Assembly (NCBI RefSeq): GCF_003334385.1
Contig: NZ_QOWN01000004.1
Strand: one strand, 5' to 3'
Origin: Escherichia coli
Lineage (GTDB): Bacteria > Pseudomonadota > Gammaproteobacteria > Enterobacterales > Enterobacteriaceae
Length of the DNA stretch: 64,000 nt
In this document: one piece after another, positions 33,723 to 43,544 of the stretch
How positions within the stretch are numbered: the first letter of the stretch is position 1
How the letters are laid out: each line of letters starts with the position of its first letter
Translations under genes and position numbers: made by a program
Notes under the pieces: generated by a model
What the model was told of the DNA's origin: nothing
The model's database searches: none
Seen by the model: the letters and a program-made list of their open reading frames with translations, nothing else

Positions 33723-34621
33723 TGGCAATTACCAATAACGCTGCCGCAGGGAGCCAGATCCGTCTGCTGTGCATGATCGACCGGGTACTGAATCGGCGGA
33801 CCGGACAGGCGATCCCGATGGTAGATTTGATTGAATTACTGCGCCCGGAGATGCTGCCCGTCAGCGATGGCGCGAGAAAACGTCTGCCCGCCGAAGTCTC
33901 TTTCTGGACAAAAGAAGGGTTGTGGAAAAATGAGAGCGCTGGCCTGAGTCAACAGTCGCCGCTTTCCAGCGAACGTAATCTGCCCGCACGGGTTTTGCGT
34001 ACGCTAATTAACAGTGAGAAAACGACGCCGCTGCTGACTGGAACGCGCGGTCAGCCCTTGCTGATGTGTGTCACCTCCATGCTTGCACAGGAAAAATATA
34101 CGTTACGTGGAAGCACGCCGCTGACAAAAGAGGCGGTGCCGCTGGCCGTTGGCCCCATGATTAATAATAAATTAGCAGGTGAGGGGCGACGTAACCTCAA
34201 CGTCTCTAACGAAGCAGAATCCTTCCTGAATTACGCGTATTTTCTCGGTTTTACAGAACCTTATCTGAATGGCTGGGTGATGGACCCTACCCGCGCCATT
34301 GAAGGAATTTTGGATAACCTGGGGCTTACCGCCGGGATGCCAATTCAGGAGTTCCTCAGCCAACTGGCGGAGTTTCTGCCAATGCTGGATGGGGGAGCCT
34401 ACCGTCAGCAGGTAGAACCGATGATCTCTGCTGACAACTGGCAACCGCTGGAGAAACATATGATTAGTGCTTCTTTGAGCCAGGCGTTGTTTCGTCTTGA
34501 GCTGACTATGCAGTTGGTTTTCAGTTCGCGTTCTGATGACCTGGACGCCATGGTCCTGCAAGGTCCGGATGGCAGCCTGCGTCGTATCAGTACCGTTAGC
34601 CCTGGGGAGGCAAGAAAATGA
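33722..34621 (+). CDS. Hypothetical protein, 299 aa, operon member
   Basis: GTG start shares its G with the upstream TAG (TAGTG); stop overlaps the next start (ATGA). No recognisable motif. Confidence 0.6.
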   Translation: MAITNNAAAGSQIRLLCMIDRVLNRRTGQAIPMVDLIELLRPEMLPVSDGARKRLPAEVSFWTKEGLWKNESAGLSQQSPLSSERNLPARVLRTLINSEKTTPLLTGTRGQPLLMCVTSMLAQEKYTLRGSTPLTKEAVPLAVGPMINNKLAGEGRRNLNVSNEAESFLNYAYFLGFTEPYLNGWVMDPTRAIEGILDNLGLTAGMPIQEFLSQLAEFLPMLDGGAYRQQVEPMISADNWQPLEKHMISASLSQALFRLELTMQLVFSSRSDDLDAMVLQGPDGSLRRISTVSPGEARK

Positions 34622-37600
34622 GAATGATCGAATACTGGCCTTCCTTGAAAAACATCAATGAATGTATTCGCACCGAGGCGGAAGAGTTGGCGGAGTACAC
34701 CTTACTGGCCGTGCATCAACCGGTGAATTTGCTGCGTCGTGATAAAGACGGCAACAACCTCGGATATGCGAAAGAAGAGGATCTGCTCAACCACTTTCTG
34801 GAAACGCCGCGCCCAATCCCGGTAGTGGGTAAAGCTGGGGTGGGGAAATCGCACATCATCCGCTGGTTGGATGCGAAACTGCGATTGCGCCAGGAGTACA
34901 AAGACAAGAAGTGGCACATTGTTCGTATTCCCAAAAGTGCCAGCCTGCGTGAAGTTCTCACCTCAATGCTGGCTGGCCTGGAAGGCGAGATCTTCGACGA
35001 GGCGCGGGAAGACATCAATAAGGTGTCGGATAAACGCACTCCTCGCGAGATTGCTGAATGGCTACTGATGCTGATGGGGCAAGAGCTGCGCAACCTGCAT
35101 GAACGCAACAAGCAGGATATGGAAGCACTGAAAAAACAGATGGCGGGGAGTACTCCTGAGCAGTTAAAAGCCATGAAGCCTCAGGCGACACGGCTCCAGA
35201 AAATCCACATCCACGCTGAAGATAATGCATTGCCAACGCTGATTAACGATGCCTACTTCAAGCAGTTTTTGTTGAAAGAAGAGCACTGCCTCTATCGTCT
35301 TGCCAGCCGTCTGACCAACGGCGCAACCAGCAGCGATCTCGACGAAGGGGAACAGCAACTTCAGGCCAAAGACCTTGATTTCAGCTTTAACATCAATGAC
35401 CTCAGTCTGCCGGCGCGTCAGTATATTCAGAAAAGCCGCCTTAATACGCATGAGGACGGGCGCAAAGATGCCTCCGAGATCCTCAACCTGGTGCTGGGTA
35501 AAGCGACGCAGGCGCTGTTTAACCAGCTCTTCAACTTCCGTGGCCGCAGTTTCTCCGACCTGTTTACTCAGATTCGTCAGGCGCTACATGAAAAGCATAT
35601 GACGCTGATGGTGCTGGTAGAGGATATGTCGCTCATCACCGCGATCGAAGATGTGCTGATCGACAGCCTGGAAAGGGAAGGGATCCGAGACGGGAAAGAG
35701 GTGCTGTGCCCTGTGTGTTCAGCCATTGCCGTTACTGACGGTTATCAGGGGTATGCCCGCCGCCGTCAGGGGATGCTGGATCGCGCGAAGGGTGAATGGG
35801 TGATCGAAGAGGTAGGGAGCGGGCGCGAAGAGACGCGACTGCGTATTGTCGATTTTTGTGGTCGATACATCAACGCGGCCCGCTTTGGGAGCGAAGCCTT
35901 ATTACAGCGCTGGGAGCAAGCCGCCGATAAATCTCACTGGCCACCTGACTGGGAAGCCAGCGCAAACGGTGACGAAATGGCCGAAGTGTTTGGGCGAAGC
36001 GAGCAAGGTTTTTCTTTGTATCCCTTCAACGCTAGCGCTATCCATGCGTTGGCAGAGGCATTCTGCCGCGACGATCGCAACGAATTAAAATTCAACCCAC
36101 GTCAGATCATCAACCAGATACTGTTGCGTGTACTACAGCACTGTCGCCGTGATGCCGATGAGGGACGCTTTCCACCTCCGCGTCTTGGCGATATTGCTGC
36201 TCCGGCAGGGCTTCGAAGCTGGCTGTTCCGCCAGGGCTTTGCCGATACCGAGCGTGCCGAATCCGTGGTCGCGCTGTGGGGTTATCCCGCCGATTCCGAC
36301 GCCACTTTGGCCAGTACGCTGCCGCCTGACGTTGCGCGCAGTTTCGATCTGGAAGATCTGGCGCAGGTGCTGGAAAACACAAAAAGTGCCCCGCTAGTTG
36401 AACAATCGGTGATGCCAACGCGGGTGACCAAAGTTGAGCAGCAGGTTAAAAAAACCGTGCAGCCACCTAAACCAGTGAAACCCGTGCTCAAGGAGGATAA
36501 AGATACCTTGGCTATCCGCGCGCTGGATGCAGCGGTGGGCGACTGGATGCTAAAAGGCGCGCCGCTTGAGATCGATCCTGCACGATATATCAAAAGCTCC
36601 CTGGCCTTTTTCTTTGATAAGCGCGCCGTGGCGGAATGGGCGGGCAGCAGCTATCGGCCGACCCTTTGGTTGGGTAAATCCAACTTTGTTGCCGTTGAGT
36701 TACCTAACGCGCAGGGTAACCGTGGCGTACATGTGGTGAAATTTATTTCCCAGTCCGAATACGACAAGCGCTCGGTGCAATTAACGGATGCCGCGATGGC
36801 GCTGGCGCGGTTTGGCTACTACAGAGAAAACTCCTTAACTAAGACCGAGGACTGGAGCTACCCGGAGGGCAAAACGGATTACCTGATTATTCAGAGCTTC
36901 TGCGATCGCTGGGTTAACTATGCGCTGACGGAACTCGTTAAGCATAAGCGCAACGATCTGCCACTGCTTCTCAGCGAGCAGATTGCACTTGCCGATGCGC
37001 TGGGGGTGATTAAAACGGCCGATGGTCCGAAAGAGGTGCTTGGGCGACTGCTGCAAAACAGCAAAACGCTTTCTTCACAGTTCCGCACCGGGATCACGAA
37101 GGCAATTACCGAACTGCGAGGAGAGGCGTTAGCAAAGTGGGATGATGCCCAGGACGCATGGCTCAGCCTGGTGGCGCTAAACGATCATGCGCTGGAAGGC
37201 GATCTCCTGCTGAGTGCGATACAAAAGGTGTTAAAAAAACGCTCAAATAACACACACGCAGCCGTGGTGAAAAAGTCGCTCAGTGAAATCCGCCCCGCAC
37301 TGGATACTGCTGCTCTGTTTGCCGACTGTGAAAATGCGGATGATTTTTCCGAACTCGTCACCGGCCTGACTCAGTTGGTTAAATCCCTTGGGGATAGCGG
37401 TGATTATCCTGCGGATATGACACCCGACAGTAGTACGCTTGCGAACTCTCTGACTGGGTTAACGGAAGGTGGAGTCTGGTTGACGATCCTCAAGTTGCGA
37501 GGCATTACGCAATCTGAAGATCCGCTTCGCCAATGGCAGTTACTTTGCGAACTGGACGGTACTTTAATTAACCGACTCATATTCACAATCAGTGGCTGGC

Positions 37601-37767
37601 AGCAGGTCAACAAGCGGGTGCTAGCGAATATTACCGCCTACAACCATTCGCATGGCAGTCACCAGATCAGCGAATTTCGCACGCAGATTGAAAGCACGTT
37701 GCAGGAACTTCATCAGGTCCTCGACGCCATGCAGTCCGTCGCAGGGGAACAGTATGACAACGCTTAA
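34618..37767 (+). CDS. Large P-loop NTPase-like protein, 1049 aa
   Basis: Walker A-like PVVGKAGVGKSH near the N-terminus; the rest has no motifs I recognise. Confidence 0.65.
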   Translation: MRMIEYWPSLKNINECIRTEAEELAEYTLLAVHQPVNLLRRDKDGNNLGYAKEEDLLNHFLETPRPIPVVGKAGVGKSHIIRWLDAKLRLRQEYKDKKWHIVRIPKSASLREVLTSMLAGLEGEIFDEAREDINKVSDKRTPREIAEWLLMLMGQELRNLHERNKQDMEALKKQMAGSTPEQLKAMKPQATRLQKIHIHAEDNALPTLINDAYFKQFLLKEEHCLYRLASRLTNGATSSDLDEGEQQLQAKDLDFSFNINDLSLPARQYIQKSRLNTHEDGRKDASEILNLVLGKATQALFNQLFNFRGRSFSDLFTQIRQALHEKHMTLMVLVEDMSLITAIEDVLIDSLEREGIRDGKEVLCPVCSAIAVTDGYQGYARRRQGMLDRAKGEWVIEEVGSGREETRLRIVDFCGRYINAARFGSEALLQRWEQAADKSHWPPDWEASANGDEMAEVFGRSEQGFSLYPFNASAIHALAEAFCRDDRNELKFNPRQIINQILLRVLQHCRRDADEGRFPPPRLGDIAAPAGLRSWLFRQGFADTERAESVVALWGYPADSDATLASTLPPDVARSFDLEDLAQVLENTKSAPLVEQSVMPTRVTKVEQQVKKTVQPPKPVKPVLKEDKDTLAIRALDAAVGDWMLKGAPLEIDPARYIKSSLAFFFDKRAVAEWAGSSYRPTLWLGKSNFVAVELPNAQGNRGVHVVKFISQSEYDKRSVQLTDAAMALARFGYYRENSLTKTEDWSYPEGKTDYLIIQSFCDRWVNYALTELVKHKRNDLPLLLSEQIALADALGVIKTADGPKEVLGRLLQNSKTLSSQFRTGITKAITELRGEALAKWDDAQDAWLSLVALNDHALEGDLLLSAIQKVLKKRSNNTHAAVVKKSLSEIRPALDTAALFADCENADDFSELVTGLTQLVKSLGDSGDYPADMTPDSSTLANSLTGLTEGGVWLTILKLRGITQSEDPLRQWQLLCELDGTLINRLIFTISGWQQVNKRVLANITAYNHSHGSHQISEFRTQIESTLQELHQVLDAMQSVAGEQYDNA

Positions 37768-38488
37768 GACCCAACTTACGCAACTGCGGGAGCAGTATCA
37801 GATAAAACAGCAGGTTCAGTCGCTGGAAGAGGTCTACGATCGGTACCGCACCATTCGTGACGGCTTGCTGGATGTTGCCGAACCGCTGCAAAAAGCCCAA
37901 AAGCAACTTGAAGTGATCGGAACGCTACCGGAACCACACTCCGCTATCGATTTTTCGCAAGAGGCGGCGCTTTTCGGCGGTGCCAAAACGCAGTTGGATG
38001 CGCTGACGGCGCGCTTCAAAGAAAGTGGCGATAAAACCGAGCAGTGCGGGTTTTGGGAAACGGTGCGGGTTCTGAAGAGCGTACATGAAAGTATTGATGA
38101 TAAGGTGGATGCAACCTGGAAAGCGTTTGTTGCCGATCTTGAAGCGCGCGCAACGCTGGATCCCGTCTTTCTGGAACAACAGCGGACGCTGGGGAACGTG
38201 TTGGTGTATGACGATTATCGCAAAGCGCGCGATAACTTTAATCGGCAGAAGTTAAGCGGGCCAGACAGCCTGTCGGTGGTAAAAAACCTGCAGAAGTATA
38301 GCGATGAGATGATCGCGCTTAAACGTTCAATGGACCTGGATGCGCCAGACGATGTTCTGCGCTTTTTTGAGGCGCTGGACAGACATAATCATGCCTCGCT
38401 TACGCTGCTGACGCCGGGCGTGATTACCTGGCTGGAAGAAAAAGATATGCTGCCAGCGTTTAACGTGACACGTAAGAGAATGATTTAA
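37754..38488 (+). CDS. Hypothetical coiled-coil protein, ~245 aa
   Basis: Start placed at ATG 37754 (MTTLKTQLTQLREQYQ...), overlapping the upstream gene by 14 nt; the track ORF from 37652 is an in-frame extension inside the upstream CDS. Stop overlaps the next start (TAATG). Confidence 0.55.
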   Translation: MTTLKTQLTQLREQYQIKQQVQSLEEVYDRYRTIRDGLLDVAEPLQKAQKQLEVIGTLPEPHSAIDFSQEAALFGGAKTQLDALTARFKESGDKTEQCGFWETVRVLKSVHESIDDKVDATWKAFVADLEARATLDPVFLEQQRTLGNVLVYDDYRKARDNFNRQKLSGPDSLSVVKNLQKYSDEMIALKRSMDLDAPDDVLRFFEALDRHNHASLTLLTPGVITWLEEKDMLPAFNVTRKRMI

Positions 38489-41400
38489 TGAAGGGAATCG
38501 ATCTTTCGCTTTTGCAACGCGTGCTAGATGCACTGGAAGAACAAGAAAATGCGCTCCTGGTATGGGGTGACACGGGCGGCTTTTTTAATCTGGATGAACT
38601 TTTAAGCGTTATCGGACGGGTTTTACCTGACGAAGATGCCGAAGTGGTTCTGGATCAAATGCTAGAGGCCGCTATGCTGATCCAGGTGCCGCACGTCAGT
38701 GGCACGCCTGTCTGGCGAACCCGAATGGGGGAGACGGTCCATCTCATGCGCAACCTGCGCCAGTGGATGCATAAGCAAAAACTGGACCAGAGCAAAACGC
38801 TGGTATCGGACTATCGCTTTATTCGCCGGCCGCGCAGCTATCCCGACCGCGTTTACGAACCGGCAACGCTGATTAGCGGCTGGAAAAAACAGCTGAAATT
38901 AAGCGATCGCGTTTGTGACATCATGCGCCAGGCGCTGGCGTCAGATAAGCCCTTCCTTCTGGCGGGTTTTCAGGTGCGCGCTACCGAACGCATTATGCAG
39001 TGCTGGCAGGATCATCAGGTGAAAAGCAACACGGCCAGCGGGACCATTGTCTGTGCTGGCACCGGTAGCGGTAAAACGCTGTCGTTTTACCTGCCTGCGC
39101 TAACCCGTCTCGCTGAGGATATTTGCAACAACCCTGAGCGCAAGGTGCGCATTCTCGCCATCTATCCGCGAAAAGAGTTGCTCAAGGACCAGTTTGCCGA
39201 AACTTTTTCACAGTGCCGCAAGCTTGACGACTATATGCTCACGGCGGCCGGAAGAAAAATTCGTATCGGTGCCTTTTTTGGCGATACACCGGTGAAGGCG
39301 GAATGGTCTAAGGAAGACGTTAAGGGGAAGGTTGGTCTGCCGTTCGGGTTGATGAAATGCCAGCAGCCCCACCCGCATCATCCTAAGCAGAGGTGCGGAG
39401 GGGCTCTCATTTGGCGTCGTGAGGACGTATTTGGCGAGCGTGAGGTACTTACCTGTACGCAGTGCCAGCATCAGGTGGATCAGAGTGAAATCATGATCAC
39501 CCGTGATGCGCAGCAACATCGCGGCGACGCGCCGGACATTCTGTTTACCACAACGGAAATGTTGAACCTCCAGATGAACTCCACCTGGAGCAACCACCTG
39601 TTTGGCGTCGGCGAGGGCTATGGGCCGACGCTGGTTCTGCTCGATGAGGTCCACACCTACAGCGGAACCACCGGCGCGCAAACTGCGTTTCTGCTGCGGC
39701 GCTGGATGCAGCGCACCGATTGTTTGCCGCATTTTGTTGGCCTGTCTGCAACGCTTACCGACGCGCAGCACTTCTTTGCCAGGTTGGTGGGTGCCGCTGA
39801 GGAGCAGGTTGCGCTGATCCAGCCCTACATGGAAGATATGATCGAAGAGGGGGCCGAGTACCTGCTGGCGCTGCGCGGCGATCCGGTTTCTGAAACGGCA
39901 TTACTCTCCACCACCATCCAGGCCAGTATGCTAATGGCGCGCATGCTGGATAGCAAAGCGAATAAGTCGCAAGGTACGTGGGGCAAGAAGACCTTCATCT
40001 TCACCGACACTCTCGACGGTAACAACCGTTTGTACCATGACCTCAGCGATGCCGAAGGTTGGGAGACGGGCCCAGGGCACTCGCGCATTGATCACTCACC
40101 GTTGGCTGTGTTACGTAGCCCTTTTGATAATACTGCACCTGAGCGGTCTAAAACCGAACTGGGGCAAAACTGGAGGGCGGCCACGGATATTGGCCACGAC
40201 CTCGCGGAAAACAAAGTCATTTCCCGAACGTCGAGCCAGGATGCCGGCGTTGATGCATCAGCGGATGTCGTGGTCGCCACCTCTTCGCTCGAGGTGGGGT
40301 ATAACGATCCGCTGGTCGGTGCCGTTCTTCAGCATAAGGCGCCGAACGATGTCGCCTCCTATTTGCAGCGTAAAGGTCGTGCCGGACGTCCACGAGGCAT
40401 GCGTCCCTGGATGCTGGTGGTGCTCTCCGAGTTTGGCCGCGATCGCGTCGAGTTCCAGCGTTATGAAGGGCTAATGAGCCCGGAGATCAAACGTCAGGGT
40501 CTGCCGCTGGACAACCAGCACGTACAGAAAATGCAGGCAGCAATGGCAACCCTCGACTGGATCAGCAAAGTCGGTCAGTTCAAAGATCTCTGGAGCATGT
40601 TGAAAAAAGCTGAGCATAATCAGCTGAAATACAATCGAATGTATGGCCCGCTTATCAAACTGATTGAAGAGGTGCTGAGCGGCGGCAGGCGGTTGAACGA
40701 ATTGATGCGCTACCTTCAGGATGCTCTGCAATTATCTGATGGCGCGGTGCAGAATATCCTCTGGAGCCCGCCGCGCTCGATCATGTTTGAGTTTCTACCA
40801 ACCATACTGCGTAACCTCAGAACGCGCTGGTCGGTTAACGGCGTGGAGTGGGCCGGACTGCGTCCGAATCAGCCAAATAGCGAGGGCGAACAGCACCGGA
40901 GCAATTCACCCGTCCCGGAATACATCCCGCAGAACCTGTTTAGCGAGCTAAACTTGCCGGAACTGGACATTCGCCTGAAGCGTGGATTTGACGATGAAGA
41001 CCACTGGGAAACTCTCTCTTTCTGGCAGGGAATACGTGAATTTGCGCCTGGGCGACTCTCTAAACGCTATGCCGTCAAATCGAACAAAAGTACCGACTGG
41101 CTGGTGCCACAATCCTACGAGCCGATGGCAGGGGAAGGGCGGCAATTTGTTGATTTCCAGATAAGCGATGCGTTCGGCGATAGCTGGCAAAACGAGTATG
41201 AAGTTGACTATATGGGAAAAACCATCAAGGTTGTTAAACCGTCGAAGGTCATGACCACTCGGGCCGACATTCGCCGGATCAATGATAAAAGTAATGCGCA
41301 ACTGCAATGGGTGTTCAACGTCATTAACCCCGCTATTGCTACGCCAGACGAGGTGCCGAAGGGACCCTGGAAGCACACGCTGAGCGATGTCACGTTCTAC

Positions 41401-43002
41401 AACCACCAGCATATGACCCCGCTGGAACTGGTCCGCTTTTCTACTGGATCGCAGGCGTCGCTCCGGTTCAGGAATAAGGAACGGGCTCACGTTGATTTCA
41501 CCTGGGTTAATGGCGAGGAACAGGTTGGCGTAGGAAGTCGTCAATGGGTGGATGCAATGCGCCTGCGTTTTAACCTCACCTGTGATGATGTGCTTGGTCT
41601 GCTACATCAAGAAGAAATCCAGCGAGGCATGCGCCCCGTTTATTTTCAACATCTTGTAAGACAGTCGCCGGAATTTGAATTTGACAGCTTCAACGCGGAC
41701 TGGGCCATTGAGTGTTTTATGGCTCAGCTTGCGGAGACACTGGCAAACGGCGCTCACGCCTCGGTTGAGTCGGCATTACGAGAAATGGCCTCCGAAAAAG
41801 GGGGAGAAAGGCTGGCAGATATTCCGGCCAGCCTGTTCCAGCCGGATACCGACAATGAAACAGGCACTGATCAGGCGCTACAGATTGGCCTCAACAAACT
41901 TCTTCAGCGACCGGAAATACAGCAGTTGCTGCTGAACTGCGCGCAAGCGCTCTGGAAACCCCTGGATGAAATCGACGGTTTTGTTGAATGGGCACGCCAG
42001 GTATTAGCGGACACCCTGGCTGCGGGTGTGCAGCAAACGCTAAGCACGCTGCTTCCGGACGTTGATGAGCGAGCGGTAGTGACGGATTCCAGTTGGATGA
42101 GCGATCCCCGCAAGGGAGCAGAATGGCTGGAAATCTGGCTCTGTGAGATGGAGTCTGGCGGCAGCGGTATTCTGATTCGTTTACAGCAGAAGTGGGCTGA
42201 AGATCCTGTCTCCTTCCTCAATGTACTAGTGCGTAATCTTTCAGCCAGCGACTACGAGCAGATCGATTACGATCTGCGAACTGTGTTGCAGATGATGCAA
42301 ACGGATGACACGCTTCGTATGGCGATCTCAGCCGTACGTGAAGCCAGCAACATGGACGCCCGGCGGGAGGCTAACAAGAATCTGCATTTGCAGCTTTCAC
42401 AGCGCGGTATGCGCCTTTCCCACAGCTTTACCACGGTGCTGTACTCGCGGATTCTGCGGGCGGGCAGCGGCGAGCACACAGATACCCAGCTTTATCAGCT
42501 ACTGTCGGACTGGTCGTCGCTTGAAGCGAGCGCGGGTATTGAATTCAGTATGAACACCATGGCGCACGCGTTGGCGGTGAACTCGCTTGGCGTAGAAACT
42601 GATGCTTCCGTCGTGTTTGACGAGCAGTGCCGGAATCAAAACCTGCTCTGGCCACGAGGCTATACGATCCGACAGGCTGAGCTCGGCTTTTACAATATGT
42701 TTTGCTCGCGCAAAGTCACAACCGAGCGTCTGCTTGCTGGCGCGTTATTTAGCGAGCAAATCGAAAAGATCGCCCTTGACGATGACTGGCTTGGGCATTT
42801 GCATGCGGCGCTGCGTAAAGGCGGTCGTGCGGAACTGATCCTCACTCGCCAGCAGCGAAATCAATTACATCAGGTCATTACCACCGTGCAAATTGAACCC
42901 GTCGATCATTTGGGACTGCTGCTGTATCCGCGTCTCGGTGAAGTCCGCCGTGAGCAGGATGTGCTCATATTGCGTATTGAACTGGCAGAGGCGATGCAAT
43001 GA
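38488..43002 (+). CDS. Giant DExH-box helicase with zinc-ribbon insert, 1504 aa
   Basis: Motifs CAGTGSGKTLSF (I), VLLDEVHTY (II), GLSATL (III), VVATSSLEVGYND (V), QRKGRAGRPRG (VI); C4 cluster CQQPHPHHPKQRC...CTQC between motifs I and II; ~900-aa C-terminal extension without obvious motifs. Confidence 0.8.
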   Translation: MKGIDLSLLQRVLDALEEQENALLVWGDTGGFFNLDELLSVIGRVLPDEDAEVVLDQMLEAAMLIQVPHVSGTPVWRTRMGETVHLMRNLRQWMHKQKLDQSKTLVSDYRFIRRPRSYPDRVYEPATLISGWKKQLKLSDRVCDIMRQALASDKPFLLAGFQVRATERIMQCWQDHQVKSNTASGTIVCAGTGSGKTLSFYLPALTRLAEDICNNPERKVRILAIYPRKELLKDQFAETFSQCRKLDDYMLTAAGRKIRIGAFFGDTPVKAEWSKEDVKGKVGLPFGLMKCQQPHPHHPKQRCGGALIWRREDVFGEREVLTCTQCQHQVDQSEIMITRDAQQHRGDAPDILFTTTEMLNLQMNSTWSNHLFGVGEGYGPTLVLLDEVHTYSGTTGAQTAFLLRRWMQRTDCLPHFVGLSATLTDAQHFFARLVGAAEEQVALIQPYMEDMIEEGAEYLLALRGDPVSETALLSTTIQASMLMARMLDSKANKSQGTWGKKTFIFTDTLDGNNRLYHDLSDAEGWETGPGHSRIDHSPLAVLRSPFDNTAPERSKTELGQNWRAATDIGHDLAENKVISRTSSQDAGVDASADVVVATSSLEVGYNDPLVGAVLQHKAPNDVASYLQRKGRAGRPRGMRPWMLVVLSEFGRDRVEFQRYEGLMSPEIKRQGLPLDNQHVQKMQAAMATLDWISKVGQFKDLWSMLKKAEHNQLKYNRMYGPLIKLIEEVLSGGRRLNELMRYLQDALQLSDGAVQNILWSPPRSIMFEFLPTILRNLRTRWSVNGVEWAGLRPNQPNSEGEQHRSNSPVPEYIPQNLFSELNLPELDIRLKRGFDDEDHWETLSFWQGIREFAPGRLSKRYAVKSNKSTDWLVPQSYEPMAGEGRQFVDFQISDAFGDSWQNEYEVDYMGKTIKVVKPSKVMTTRADIRRINDKSNAQLQWVFNVINPAIATPDEVPKGPWKHTLSDVTFYNHQHMTPLELVRFSTGSQASLRFRNKERAHVDFTWVNGEEQVGVGSRQWVDAMRLRFNLTCDDVLGLLHQEEIQRGMRPVYFQHLVRQSPEFEFDSFNADWAIECFMAQLAETLANGAHASVESALREMASEKGGERLADIPASLFQPDTDNETGTDQALQIGLNKLLQRPEIQQLLLNCAQALWKPLDEIDGFVEWARQVLADTLAAGVQQTLSTLLPDVDERAVVTDSSWMSDPRKGAEWLEIWLCEMESGGSGILIRLQQKWAEDPVSFLNVLVRNLSASDYEQIDYDLRTVLQMMQTDDTLRMAISAVREASNMDARREANKNLHLQLSQRGMRLSHSFTTVLYSRILRAGSGEHTDTQLYQLLSDWSSLEASAGIEFSMNTMAHALAVNSLGVETDASVVFDEQCRNQNLLWPRGYTIRQAELGFYNMFCSRKVTTERLLAGALFSEQIEKIALDDDWLGHLHAALRKGGRAELILTRQQRNQLHQVITTVQIEPVDHLGLLLYPRLGEVRREQDVLILRIELAEAMQ

Positions 43003-43544
43003 TCGGACGTGCAAAACAGCGGCAGATTTTTTTACATGGCTCCGCAGGGCACCGGCAGTTGCGAGAAGTCCTCAGCGCCCAGGTTGTTGCTCTGATTATG
43101 CAGCCAGAGCCAATCTGGCTGGTTTCGCCGTGGGTGAGTAACTTCTCACTACTGGACAATCGCTCAGGCAATTGGGACAGCATTGATCCCGCGTGGGGAG
43201 GCCGGGAGGTGGATTTCATTGAGCTGTTAGCCTGTGCGGTGAATAACGGCGCGCCGCTTTCGCTGGTCACCCGCGACGAACCGATGAACCGTATCTTTGT
43301 AAAAGCGCTGGAAAAACGCCTGAGTAACTTTGCGACCTTTCGTTTGGAATGGCGTAACCAGTTGCATACAAAAGGTTTTCTGACGCCAAATTTTTTTCTC
43401 AAGGGCTCGATGAATTTTACCCGGAGCGGTGTTAATCGAAATGAAGAATTTGTCGAACTGAACTGCGATTCGCATATGATCGGTGAAGCGATGGCCGAAT
43501 TTGAAAGTCAGTATCTTTTTATTGGATCAAAGGAAGCGTTCTGA
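42999..43544 (+). CDS. Phospholipase D-family nuclease with a single HKD motif, 181 aa
   Basis: HTKGFLTPNFFLKGSMNFT fits HxK-x4-x-x6-GSxN of PLD/Nuc-family endonucleases; start overlaps the helicase stop (ATGA). Confidence 0.7.
   Translation: MIGRAKQRQIFLHGSAGHRQLREVLSAQVVALIMQPEPIWLVSPWVSNFSLLDNRSGNWDSIDPAWGGREVDFIELLACAVNNGAPLSLVTRDEPMNRIFVKALEKRLSNFATFRLEWRNQLHTKGFLTPNFFLKGSMNFTRSGVNRNEEFVELNCDSHMIGEAMAEFESQYLFIGSKEAF

What the first reader, a model, noticed from the sequence alone, without database searches (positions are those of the whole stretch)
38488..43002. 1504-aa DExH helicase with a C4 zinc ribbon between motifs I and II and a ~900-aa uncharacterised C-terminal region
Helicase motifs I-VI occupy roughly the first 600 residues; a CQQPHPHHPKQRC...CTQC cluster (about nt 39350-39480) is inserted in the first RecA-like domain, and the remaining ~900 residues have no motifs I can recognise. 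This is where a modification-sensing or nuclease-recruiting domain would be expected.
Basis: partly seen in the sequence, partly recalled or inferred. Interest (0 to 1): 0.6.

Follow-up and report, generated by a model that had tools for sequence, protein, structure and literature searches.

The report
DpdJ helicase of 7-deazaguanine restriction system
The 1504-residue ORF is DpdJ, the already named and annotated helicase of the Dpd (7-deazaguanine DNA modification/restriction) island of E. coli; its zinc ribbon and long C-terminal region are real, but a 2025 preprint already described them as a divergent MrfA/DISARM-type DNA-clamping "canopy" plus an Alba-like domain, so this is a known protein whose biochemistry is still untested.

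The parts
38488..43002 (+). dpdJ CDS, 1504 aa
   Evidence: ORF. PADLOC PDLC02896 E=0, 2199 bits, 1-1504 against 1-1487/1487. NCBIfam NF041067 equivalog 1739.6 bits against cut-off 800. 100% identical to RefSeq dpdJ WP_000675892.1.
38488..38937 (+). N-terminal domain, residues 1-150: three helices plus a beta-wing (winged-helix-like), then a conserved Arg-rich strand LVSDxRFxRRPRxYPxR (105-121)
38965..39822 (+). RecA1 domain, about residues 160-445, with motifs I, Ia, II and III
   Evidence: Motif positions. Pfam DEAD split 185-244 and 341-425. Foldseek best hits MrfA 6znp 1e-18 and DrmA 7s9v 1.1e-18.
39334..39492 (+). Zinc-ribbon module inserted in RecA1, residues 283-335; Cys 291, 303, 323, 326 at nt 39358-39465
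   Evidence: Four Cys invariant in 121 homologues. Usual spacing C-x4-C-x19-C-x2-C (31/47); here C-x11-C with a Q/P/H-rich loop shared only with Klebsiella, Yersinia and Serratia. Beta-hairpins at pLDDT ~90. Zinc binding itself was not tested.
39835..40482 (+). RecA2 domain, about residues 450-665, with motif VI QRKGRAGR
   Evidence: Pfam Helicase_C 590-635, motif VI 627-634, most conserved stretch of the protein at 0.88 for residues 601-650.
40516..40824 (+). Helical (HTH-like) domain after RecA2, residues 677-779
40960..41571 (+). Beta-rich block, residues 825-1028: OB fold plus CON sheet of the YprA-type canopy
41581..42051 (+). Helical insertion 1, residues 1032-1188, DpdJ-specific
42076..42168 (+). 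Remnant of the DUF1998/MZB/HAR core, residues 1197-1227: beta-hairpin plus invariant E1220-x3-G1224-G1225-x-G1227; the four-Cys site is lost
   Evidence: Invariant motif. In distant homologues Cys occupy the aligned positions ~892, 915, 1185 and 1189: all four in 8 of 130 and partial in many, while E. coli has -/V/L/L. Pfam DUF1998 hits 0 of 60.
42169..42747 (+). Helical block 2, residues 1228-1420, DpdJ-specific
   Evidence: AF2 all-helical, pLDDT >90. No structural match listed.
42766..42981 (+). C-terminal Alba-like alpha/beta domain, residues 1427-1498
42999..43544 (+). dpdK, 181-aa single-motif PLD nuclease; its ATG overlaps the dpdJ stop (ATGA)
   Evidence: NCBIfam NF041068 186.7 bits against cut-off 100. 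H123-x-K125 and G-S-x-N present. Overlap. DpdK follows DpdJ in L002, L003 and L004.
37652..38488 (+). dpdI (RefSeq start corresponds to window 37754); its stop TAA overlaps the dpdJ ATG (TAATG)
   Evidence: PADLOC DpdI E 4e-170 from residue 35, NCBIfam NF041066, overlap.
24476..27886 (+). Modification module dpdC (24476-25432), dpdA (25485-26756), dpdB (26753-27886)
   Evidence: PADLOC DpdC E 1.3e-159. NCBIfam DpdA 580 bits and DpdB 474 bits.
28203..37767 (+). dpdE (28203-31259), dpdF (31272-33722), dpdG (33722-34621), dpdH (34618-37767)
   Evidence: PADLOC, E=0 or 4.9e-158, all full length.
43544..45715 (+). dpdD
   Evidence: PADLOC E=0. NCBIfam NF041061 595 bits.

Best explanation
The ORF is DpdJ, the YprA/MrfA-family superfamily-2 helicase of the Dpd restriction-modification island. 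In that system DpdA/B/C place dPreQ0/dADG (7-deazaguanine bases) in host DNA and DpdD-K restrict DNA that lacks them. Shown here: family identity; an intact ATPase/helicase motif set; one invariant four-Cys zinc ribbon inserted in RecA1; and a C-terminal half made of a helical domain, an OB-CON-DUF1998-type canopy that has lost its zinc site and gained two helical insertions, and an Alba-like terminal domain. Inferred mechanism, by analogy with MrfA and DISARM DrmAB: DpdJ loads on single-stranded DNA or an ssDNA end of incoming DNA. The canopy closes over the strand held by the two RecA domains. ATP hydrolysis drives translocation and unwinding. The translationally coupled PLD nuclease DpdK, which has a single HxK motif and so probably acts as a dimer, cuts the DNA that DpdJ exposes. 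The zinc ribbon is most likely a structural or DNA-contacting brace on RecA1. The N-terminal winged helix and the C-terminal Alba-like domain are extra nucleic-acid-binding surfaces. Where the 7-deazaguanine mark is read is not known.
Against: [quoted passage not shown] The canopy assignment rests on predicted structure only. Pfam DUF1998 hits 0 of 60 DpdJ-like sequences, and the C-terminal region gives no DrmB or DruE PADLOC hit even at E<=10. The Foldseek E-values for the C-terminus are weak (2e-3 and 2.7e-2). In DISARM the PLD nuclease DrmC is reported as non-essential, so DpdK may not be the key effector. The operon has two other helicases (DpdE, DpdF) and a BrxC-like DpdH/I that could supply the motor or sensor functions. 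Zinc binding, polarity, substrate and any DpdJ-DpdK contact are untested.
Confidence: 0.6

Rival explanations
1. DpdJ is itself the self/non-self sensor. The ssDNA channel between the RecA domains and the canopy, or the Alba-like or winged-helix domains or the DpdJ-specific helical insertions, reads dPreQ0/dADG, so the helicase stalls or is released on modified host DNA and activates restriction only on unmodified DNA.
For: For DISARM, a conformational activation of DrmAB on loading unmethylated DNA has been proposed (PMC9142583). DpdJ has about 350 residues of family-specific helical insertions and two extra predicted nucleic-acid-binding domains of unknown role. The region is conserved as one unit in 797 cluster representatives.
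Confidence: 0.2
2. DpdJ is mainly a scaffold or regulatory subunit of a large BREX-like DpdE-K assembly. Its ATPase remodels the complex or the DNA, and DNA destruction is carried out by another component rather than by a DpdJ-DpdK pair.
For: The operon encodes BREX-like factors, DpdE/BrxHII-like and DpdH-I/BrxC-like (preprint Supplementary Figure S1 legend; PADLOC cross-hits to BrxHI/BrxHII). DrmC is dispensable in DISARM. All eight restriction genes keep a fixed order over wide divergence.
Against: All helicase motifs are invariant, which argues for a working motor. The dpdJ-dpdK start/stop overlap and strict adjacency suggest a specific pair. DpdK keeps its catalytic H-x-K and G-S-x-N.
Confidence: 0.15
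3. It is a housekeeping MrfA-like DNA-repair helicase that merely sits in the island.
For: The best structural match is the repair helicase MrfA.
Against: It is an accessory gene, present in 47 of 5426 E. coli genomes, inside an integrase-bearing island at tRNA-Leu. It is always embedded in dpd operons, including distant ones. No MrfB-type exonuclease partner is present. The preprint's phylogeny places it in the defence branch of the family.
Confidence: 0.02

Closest known systems
DpdJ of the Salmonella Montevideo / E. coli Dpd system (NCBIfam NF041067; PADLOC DpdJ; architecture in Bell et al., bioRxiv 10.1101/2025.09.15.676423)
   Same: The same protein family at full length, the same operon position between dpdI and dpdK, and the same domain order: wHTH, RecA1 with one zinc module, RecA2, helical domain, OB-CON-degenerate DUF1998 with two helical insertions, Alba-like domain. 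I reproduced all of these independently apart from the MukF match for the wHTH.
   Different: Nothing essential. Small additions from this work: the enterobacterial clade has widened the first zinc knuckle from C-x4-C to C-x11-C, and the loss of the DUF1998 cysteines is graded across DpdJ-like proteins that still sit in canonical dpd operons.
MrfA/YprA of Bacillus subtilis (PDB 6znp), a DUF1998 DNA-repair helicase
   Different: MrfA is about 750 aa, has an intact four-Cys zinc site, no zinc ribbon in RecA1, no large helical insertions and no Alba-like or N-terminal wHTH domain. It partners with the exonuclease MrfB in mitomycin repair, not with a PLD nuclease in defence. Sequence identity is 6-15%.
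DISARM DrmA + DrmB (+ DrmC PLD nuclease) (PDB 7s9v/7s9w)
   Different: In DISARM the helicase and canopy are two proteins; in DpdJ they are fused. DrmB keeps the four-Cys cluster plus extra metal sites, whereas DpdJ has lost it. DrmA has an EVE-like domain and a trigger loop, and DpdJ has a wHTH instead. DrmC has a Cas11-like four-helix bundle that DpdK lacks. The mark is methylation, not 7-deazaguanine.
Druantia DruE / ARMADA ArmC helicases
   Same: Large defence helicases of the YprA family. PADLOC DruE models cross-hit the DpdJ helicase core (E 1e-18).
   Different: They belong to the other defence clade. They have a BrxA-like domain, a beta-barrel zinc module and a MarR-like domain in RecA2, and a nuclease fused at the C-terminus. 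DpdJ has none of these.

Membership tests
DpdJ (NCBIfam NF041067, equivalog) | Whole-protein score above the curated cut-off, with full-length coverage | tested here: met
   1739.6 bits against cut-off 800; residues 13-1504 align to 1-1482/1482. PADLOC PDLC02896 1-1504 against 1-1487/1487, E=0.
DpdJ (Dpd system) | Encoded in a dpd cluster with dpdA (TGT paralogue), dpdB, dpdC and the dpdD-K restriction genes | tested here: met
   dpdC-A-B-E-F-G-H-I-J-K-D, all with strong model hits. RefSeq annotation agrees.
DpdJ (Dpd system) | Contributes to restriction of DNA lacking dPreQ0/dADG | not testable with these tools
   Genetic evidence exists for dpdD-K as a group in S. Montevideo (PMC10164549; PMC5699537), but not for this E. 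coli allele or for DpdJ alone.
Superfamily 2 DExH helicase | Motifs I, Ia, II (DExH), III and VI in two RecA-like domains | tested here: met
   GSGKT 193, PRKEL 227, DEVH 386, SAT 420, QRKGRAGR 627. Pfam DEAD and Helicase_C. Confident RecA1/RecA2 model.
YprA/MrfA-like (DUF1998) helicases | OB-CON-DUF1998 canopy fold C-terminal to the helicase core | tested here: met
YprA/MrfA-like (DUF1998) helicases | Four-cysteine zinc cluster of the DUF1998/MZB domain | tested here: not met
   E. coli DpdJ has gap/V/L/L at the four aligned positions. All four Cys occur in only 8 of 130 DpdJ-like sequences. The preprint reports the same loss.
YprA/MrfA-like (DUF1998) helicases | Sequence match to Pfam DUF1998 (PF09369) or to DrmB/DruE C-terminal models | tested here: not met
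   0 of 60 sequences hit at E<=0.1. No DrmB or DruE PADLOC hit for the C-terminal region at E<=10, including two CCCC-retaining homologues.
Zinc ribbon (C4) | Two Cys knuckles on beta-hairpins, conserved across the family | tested here: met
   C291, C303, C323 and C326 are invariant in 121 sequences. Typical spacing C-x4-C-x19-C-x2-C. Strands 283-290, 306-310 and 321-323 at pLDDT ~90.
Zinc ribbon (C4) | Binds zinc | not testable with these tools
   Needs metal analysis of purified protein.
Alba (IF3-C-like fold) domain | Beta-alpha-beta-alpha-beta-beta fold superposable on Alba | tested here: met
Alba (IF3-C-like fold) domain | Sequence homology to Alba, and nucleic-acid binding | tested here: not met
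MukF-like winged helix (N-terminal domain) | wHTH fold matching MukF | tested here: inconclusive
DISARM | Separate DrmA and DrmB genes with a DrmMI/DrmMII methyltransferase | tested here: not met
   Helicase and canopy are fused in one ORF. No methyltransferase is present. The modification module is dpdC-A-B.

The most novel reading that the evidence does not exclude
The ~350 residues of DpdJ-specific helical insertions in the canopy (1032-1188 and 1228-1420), together with the Alba-like tail, form a previously unrecognised module. It would either read 7-deazaguanine (dPreQ0/dADG) in the translocating strand or dock and gate the DpdK PLD dimer, functionally replacing the lost DUF1998 zinc site. 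That would make DpdJ the self/non-self switch of the Dpd system.
Probability: 0.15. Interest if true: 0.6.

Novelty: already known. Interest (0 to 1): 0.22.

Why it matters
Dpd is the only known restriction-modification system that marks host DNA with 7-deazaguanine bases borrowed from the queuosine tRNA pathway. Its modification half (DpdA/B/C) has been reconstituted, but the restriction half (DpdD-K) is still a black box. DpdJ is its largest protein and links it evolutionarily to DISARM and Druantia. For this scan the value is mainly negative: the flagged gene is a named, RefSeq-annotated family member whose zinc ribbon and C-terminal domains have already been described computationally. The open question is experimental (substrate, polarity, partner nuclease, and where the modification is read). 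This window gives a clean, complete E. coli allele on which to test it.

Tried and rejected
(1) I first thought the island lacked dpdC, because there was no NCBIfam hit and RefSeq says 'hypothetical'. I rejected this when PADLOC gave a full-length DpdC hit at E 1.3e-159 for ORF 24476-25432. Run in two halves, it found nothing beyond the helicase core. (3) A sequence search of the PDB with the full protein matched only short helicase-core stretches, and no DpdJ structure exists. (4) Profile-versus-PDB searches for the Alba-like domain (A5) and the N-terminal domain (A6) gave only chance-level hits. (5) Pfam DUF1998 was sought in 60 DpdJ-like sequences, including deep-branching ones, and none hit. 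(6) The C-terminal region alone, scanned against PADLOC at E<=10, gave no DrmB or DruE hit. (7) The first C-terminal alignments were too large and were rebuilt with 60 sequences. (8) Thiaville et al. 2016 (PMC4801273) is not held, so the restriction phenotype is cited through later papers. (9) I looked for a modification-reader fold among the structural matches and found none. (10) Model coordinates are not exposed, so I could not measure Cys-Cys distances in the zinc ribbon, the spatial proximity of the four ex-cysteine positions, or which residues align to MrfA and DrmB.

Full report
OBSERVATION. The ORF at 38488-43002 (+) is real, starts with ATG and encodes 1504 aa. Direct motif search places motif I GSGKT at 193-197 (nt 39064-39078), Ia PRKEL at 227-231, II DEVH at 386-389 (nt 39643-39654), III SAT at 420-422 and VI QRKGRAGR at 627-634. 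The helicase core therefore occupies about residues 160-660. The cysteine cluster is C291-x11-C303 ... C323-x2-C326 (nt 39358-39465), inside the stated range and between motifs Ia/Ib and Ic/II. Pfam sees a DEAD domain split by the insertion (185-244 and 341-425) and Helicase_C (590-635), and nothing at all in 601-1504.

IDENTITY. All eight co-directional ORFs from 28203 to 45715 hit PADLOC Dpd models at E=0 or close to it, in the order dpdE-F-G-H-I-J-K-D. The target is a full-length DpdJ: PDLC02896, 2199 bits, 1-1504 against 1-1487. NCBIfam's equivalog NF041067 gives 1739.6 bits against a cut-off of 800. The DNA is 100% identical to genes that RefSeq annotates as dpdJ (WP_000675892.1) in E. 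coli chromosomes, and it occurs in 47 of 5426 complete genomes. The island lies next to tRNA-Leu and a tyrosine integrase. It also carries dpdA, dpdB and queD and a full-length dpdC at 24476-25432, which RefSeq leaves as 'hypothetical' (PADLOC E 1.3e-159). The dpdI stop overlaps the dpdJ start (TAATG), and the dpdK start overlaps the dpdJ stop (ATGA).

ZINC RIBBON. In alignments of 47 and 121 DpdJ homologues (42-94% identity) the four cysteines are invariant, while surrounding columns average 0.53 top-residue frequency. Of the 16 cysteines in the protein only these four and C189 are invariant; the other 11 are Cys in 2 to 46 of 47 homologues. The usual spacing is C-x4-C-x19-C-x2-C (31 of 47). 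The E. coli, Klebsiella, Yersinia and Serratia clade has widened the first knuckle to C-x11-C with a Gln/Pro/His-rich loop. An AlphaFold2 model of residues 1-700 (pLDDT 89.8, pTM 0.86) puts the cysteines on short beta-hairpins (strands 283-290, 306-310, 321-323) at pLDDT ~90, inserted between RecA1 strands 260-263 and 351-355. Zinc binding itself could not be tested.

HELICASE FAMILY. Foldseek of the 1-700 model against the PDB ranks MrfA (6znp, 1e-18) and DISARM DrmA (7s9v, 1.1e-18, TM 0.59) first, ahead of Brr2, Hel308, RecQ and DEAD-box helicases. No DpdJ structure has been solved.

C-TERMINAL REGION. An exhaustive phmmer search with residues 651-1504 against 1.84 billion cluster representatives found 797 proteins at E<=1e-3. 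Nearly all of the best 150 align end to end, mostly within proteins of about 1500 aa, so the region is one conserved, DpdJ-specific unit. An AF2 model built on 60 diverse sequences is confident (pLDDT 89.3, pTM 0.84). In full-protein numbering it shows:
- a helical domain at 677-779
- a disordered linker at 794-821
- a beta-rich block at 825-1028
- a helical block at 1032-1188
- a beta-hairpin at 1197-1220 that ends in the invariant E1220-x3-GG-x-G1227 motif
- a second helical block at 1228-1420
- a small beta-alpha-beta-alpha-beta-beta domain at 1427-1498

At the sequence level the relationship is invisible. Pfam DUF1998 hits 0 of 60 sequences. No DrmB or DruE model hits the region at E<=10. 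Profiles of the Alba-like and N-terminal domains find nothing in the PDB.

DECAYED DUF1998 ZINC SITE. In a 130-sequence alignment reaching 25% identity, cysteines are frequent at four aligned positions (an insertion column after about residue 892, then 915, 1185 and 1189). All four are Cys in 8 sequences and one to three of them in many others. E. coli DpdJ has gap/V/L/L. Two of the CCCC-retaining proteins (P0133, P0160) still sit in canonical dpdE-F-G-H-I-J-K-D operons.

MECHANISM (inferred). By analogy with MrfA and with DrmAB, which binds ssDNA in a channel formed by the RecA domains and the DUF1998 protein (PMC9142583), DpdJ is most likely an ATP-driven ssDNA translocase/helicase whose canopy clamps the strand. 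The start/stop overlap with dpdK, the conserved J-K adjacency and DpdK's intact H-x-K and G-S-x-N motifs suggest that it works with a DpdK dimer as the nuclease. The zinc ribbon is probably a structural or DNA-contacting brace. No modification-reader fold was found, so where dPreQ0/dADG is read remains open. DpdJ's channel, its insertions, and the other Dpd proteins are all candidates.

VERDICT. The feature is an already named, annotated and computationally dissected protein. Its novelty is therefore 'already known', with modest residual interest because the restriction mechanism of Dpd is still unsolved.

Noticed in passing
window 24476-25432 (+): This ORF is a full-length DpdC by PADLOC (E 1.3e-159, model 1-318/319 covered from the GTG start). 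RefSeq annotates it as 'hypothetical protein' with a start 34 codons further in, and NCBIfam has no model that hits it. This looks like an annotation gap, and possibly a mis-called start.
   Followed up: partly
window 48997-49833 (-): About 3 kb beyond the dpd island lies a phosphorothioated-DNA-binding restriction endonuclease (NCBIfam NF045808, E 6e-124). That is a second modification-related defence gene, and no dnd genes were seen in the ORFs I examined.
   Followed up: no
window 39358-39396 (DpdJ residues 291-303): The first zinc knuckle is C-x11-C with a QQPHPHHPKQR loop in E. coli, Klebsiella, Yersinia and Serratia (C-x9-C in one relative), against C-x4-C in most DpdJ. The extra histidines are not conserved even within the clade, so they are unlikely to be ligands.
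   Followed up: partly
DpdJ residue ~878 (window ~41120): PADLOC carries half-length DpdJ models (1-876 and 880-1504, plus a 1-504 model). This implies that some genomes have dpdJ split or frameshifted inside the beta-rich (OB) block, which is not at the DrmA/DrmB-like boundary.
   Followed up: no
L003 10001-14620 and L004 2646-7283: Deep-branching DpdJ proteins that retain all four DUF1998-site cysteines still sit in canonical dpdE-F-G-H-I-J-K-D operons. The zinc site therefore decayed gradually within Dpd rather than at its origin.
   Followed up: partly
L002 17737-22837 and L003 17810-21292: In Acinetobacter and in a metagenomic locus, the modification module has two DndB-family genes flanking the TGT (dpdA) gene, a different layout from the E. 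coli dpdC-dpdA-dpdB. In L002, dpdH and dpdD each appear as two ORFs.
   Followed up: no
window ~47250-52100 versus L001 28770-33616: The window differs from strain AR_0017 downstream of queD. AR_0017 has a group II intron (ltrA) and IS fragments between the IS30 remnant and the PT-dependent endonuclease, which the window appears to lack (an offset of about 2.3 kb).
   Followed up: no
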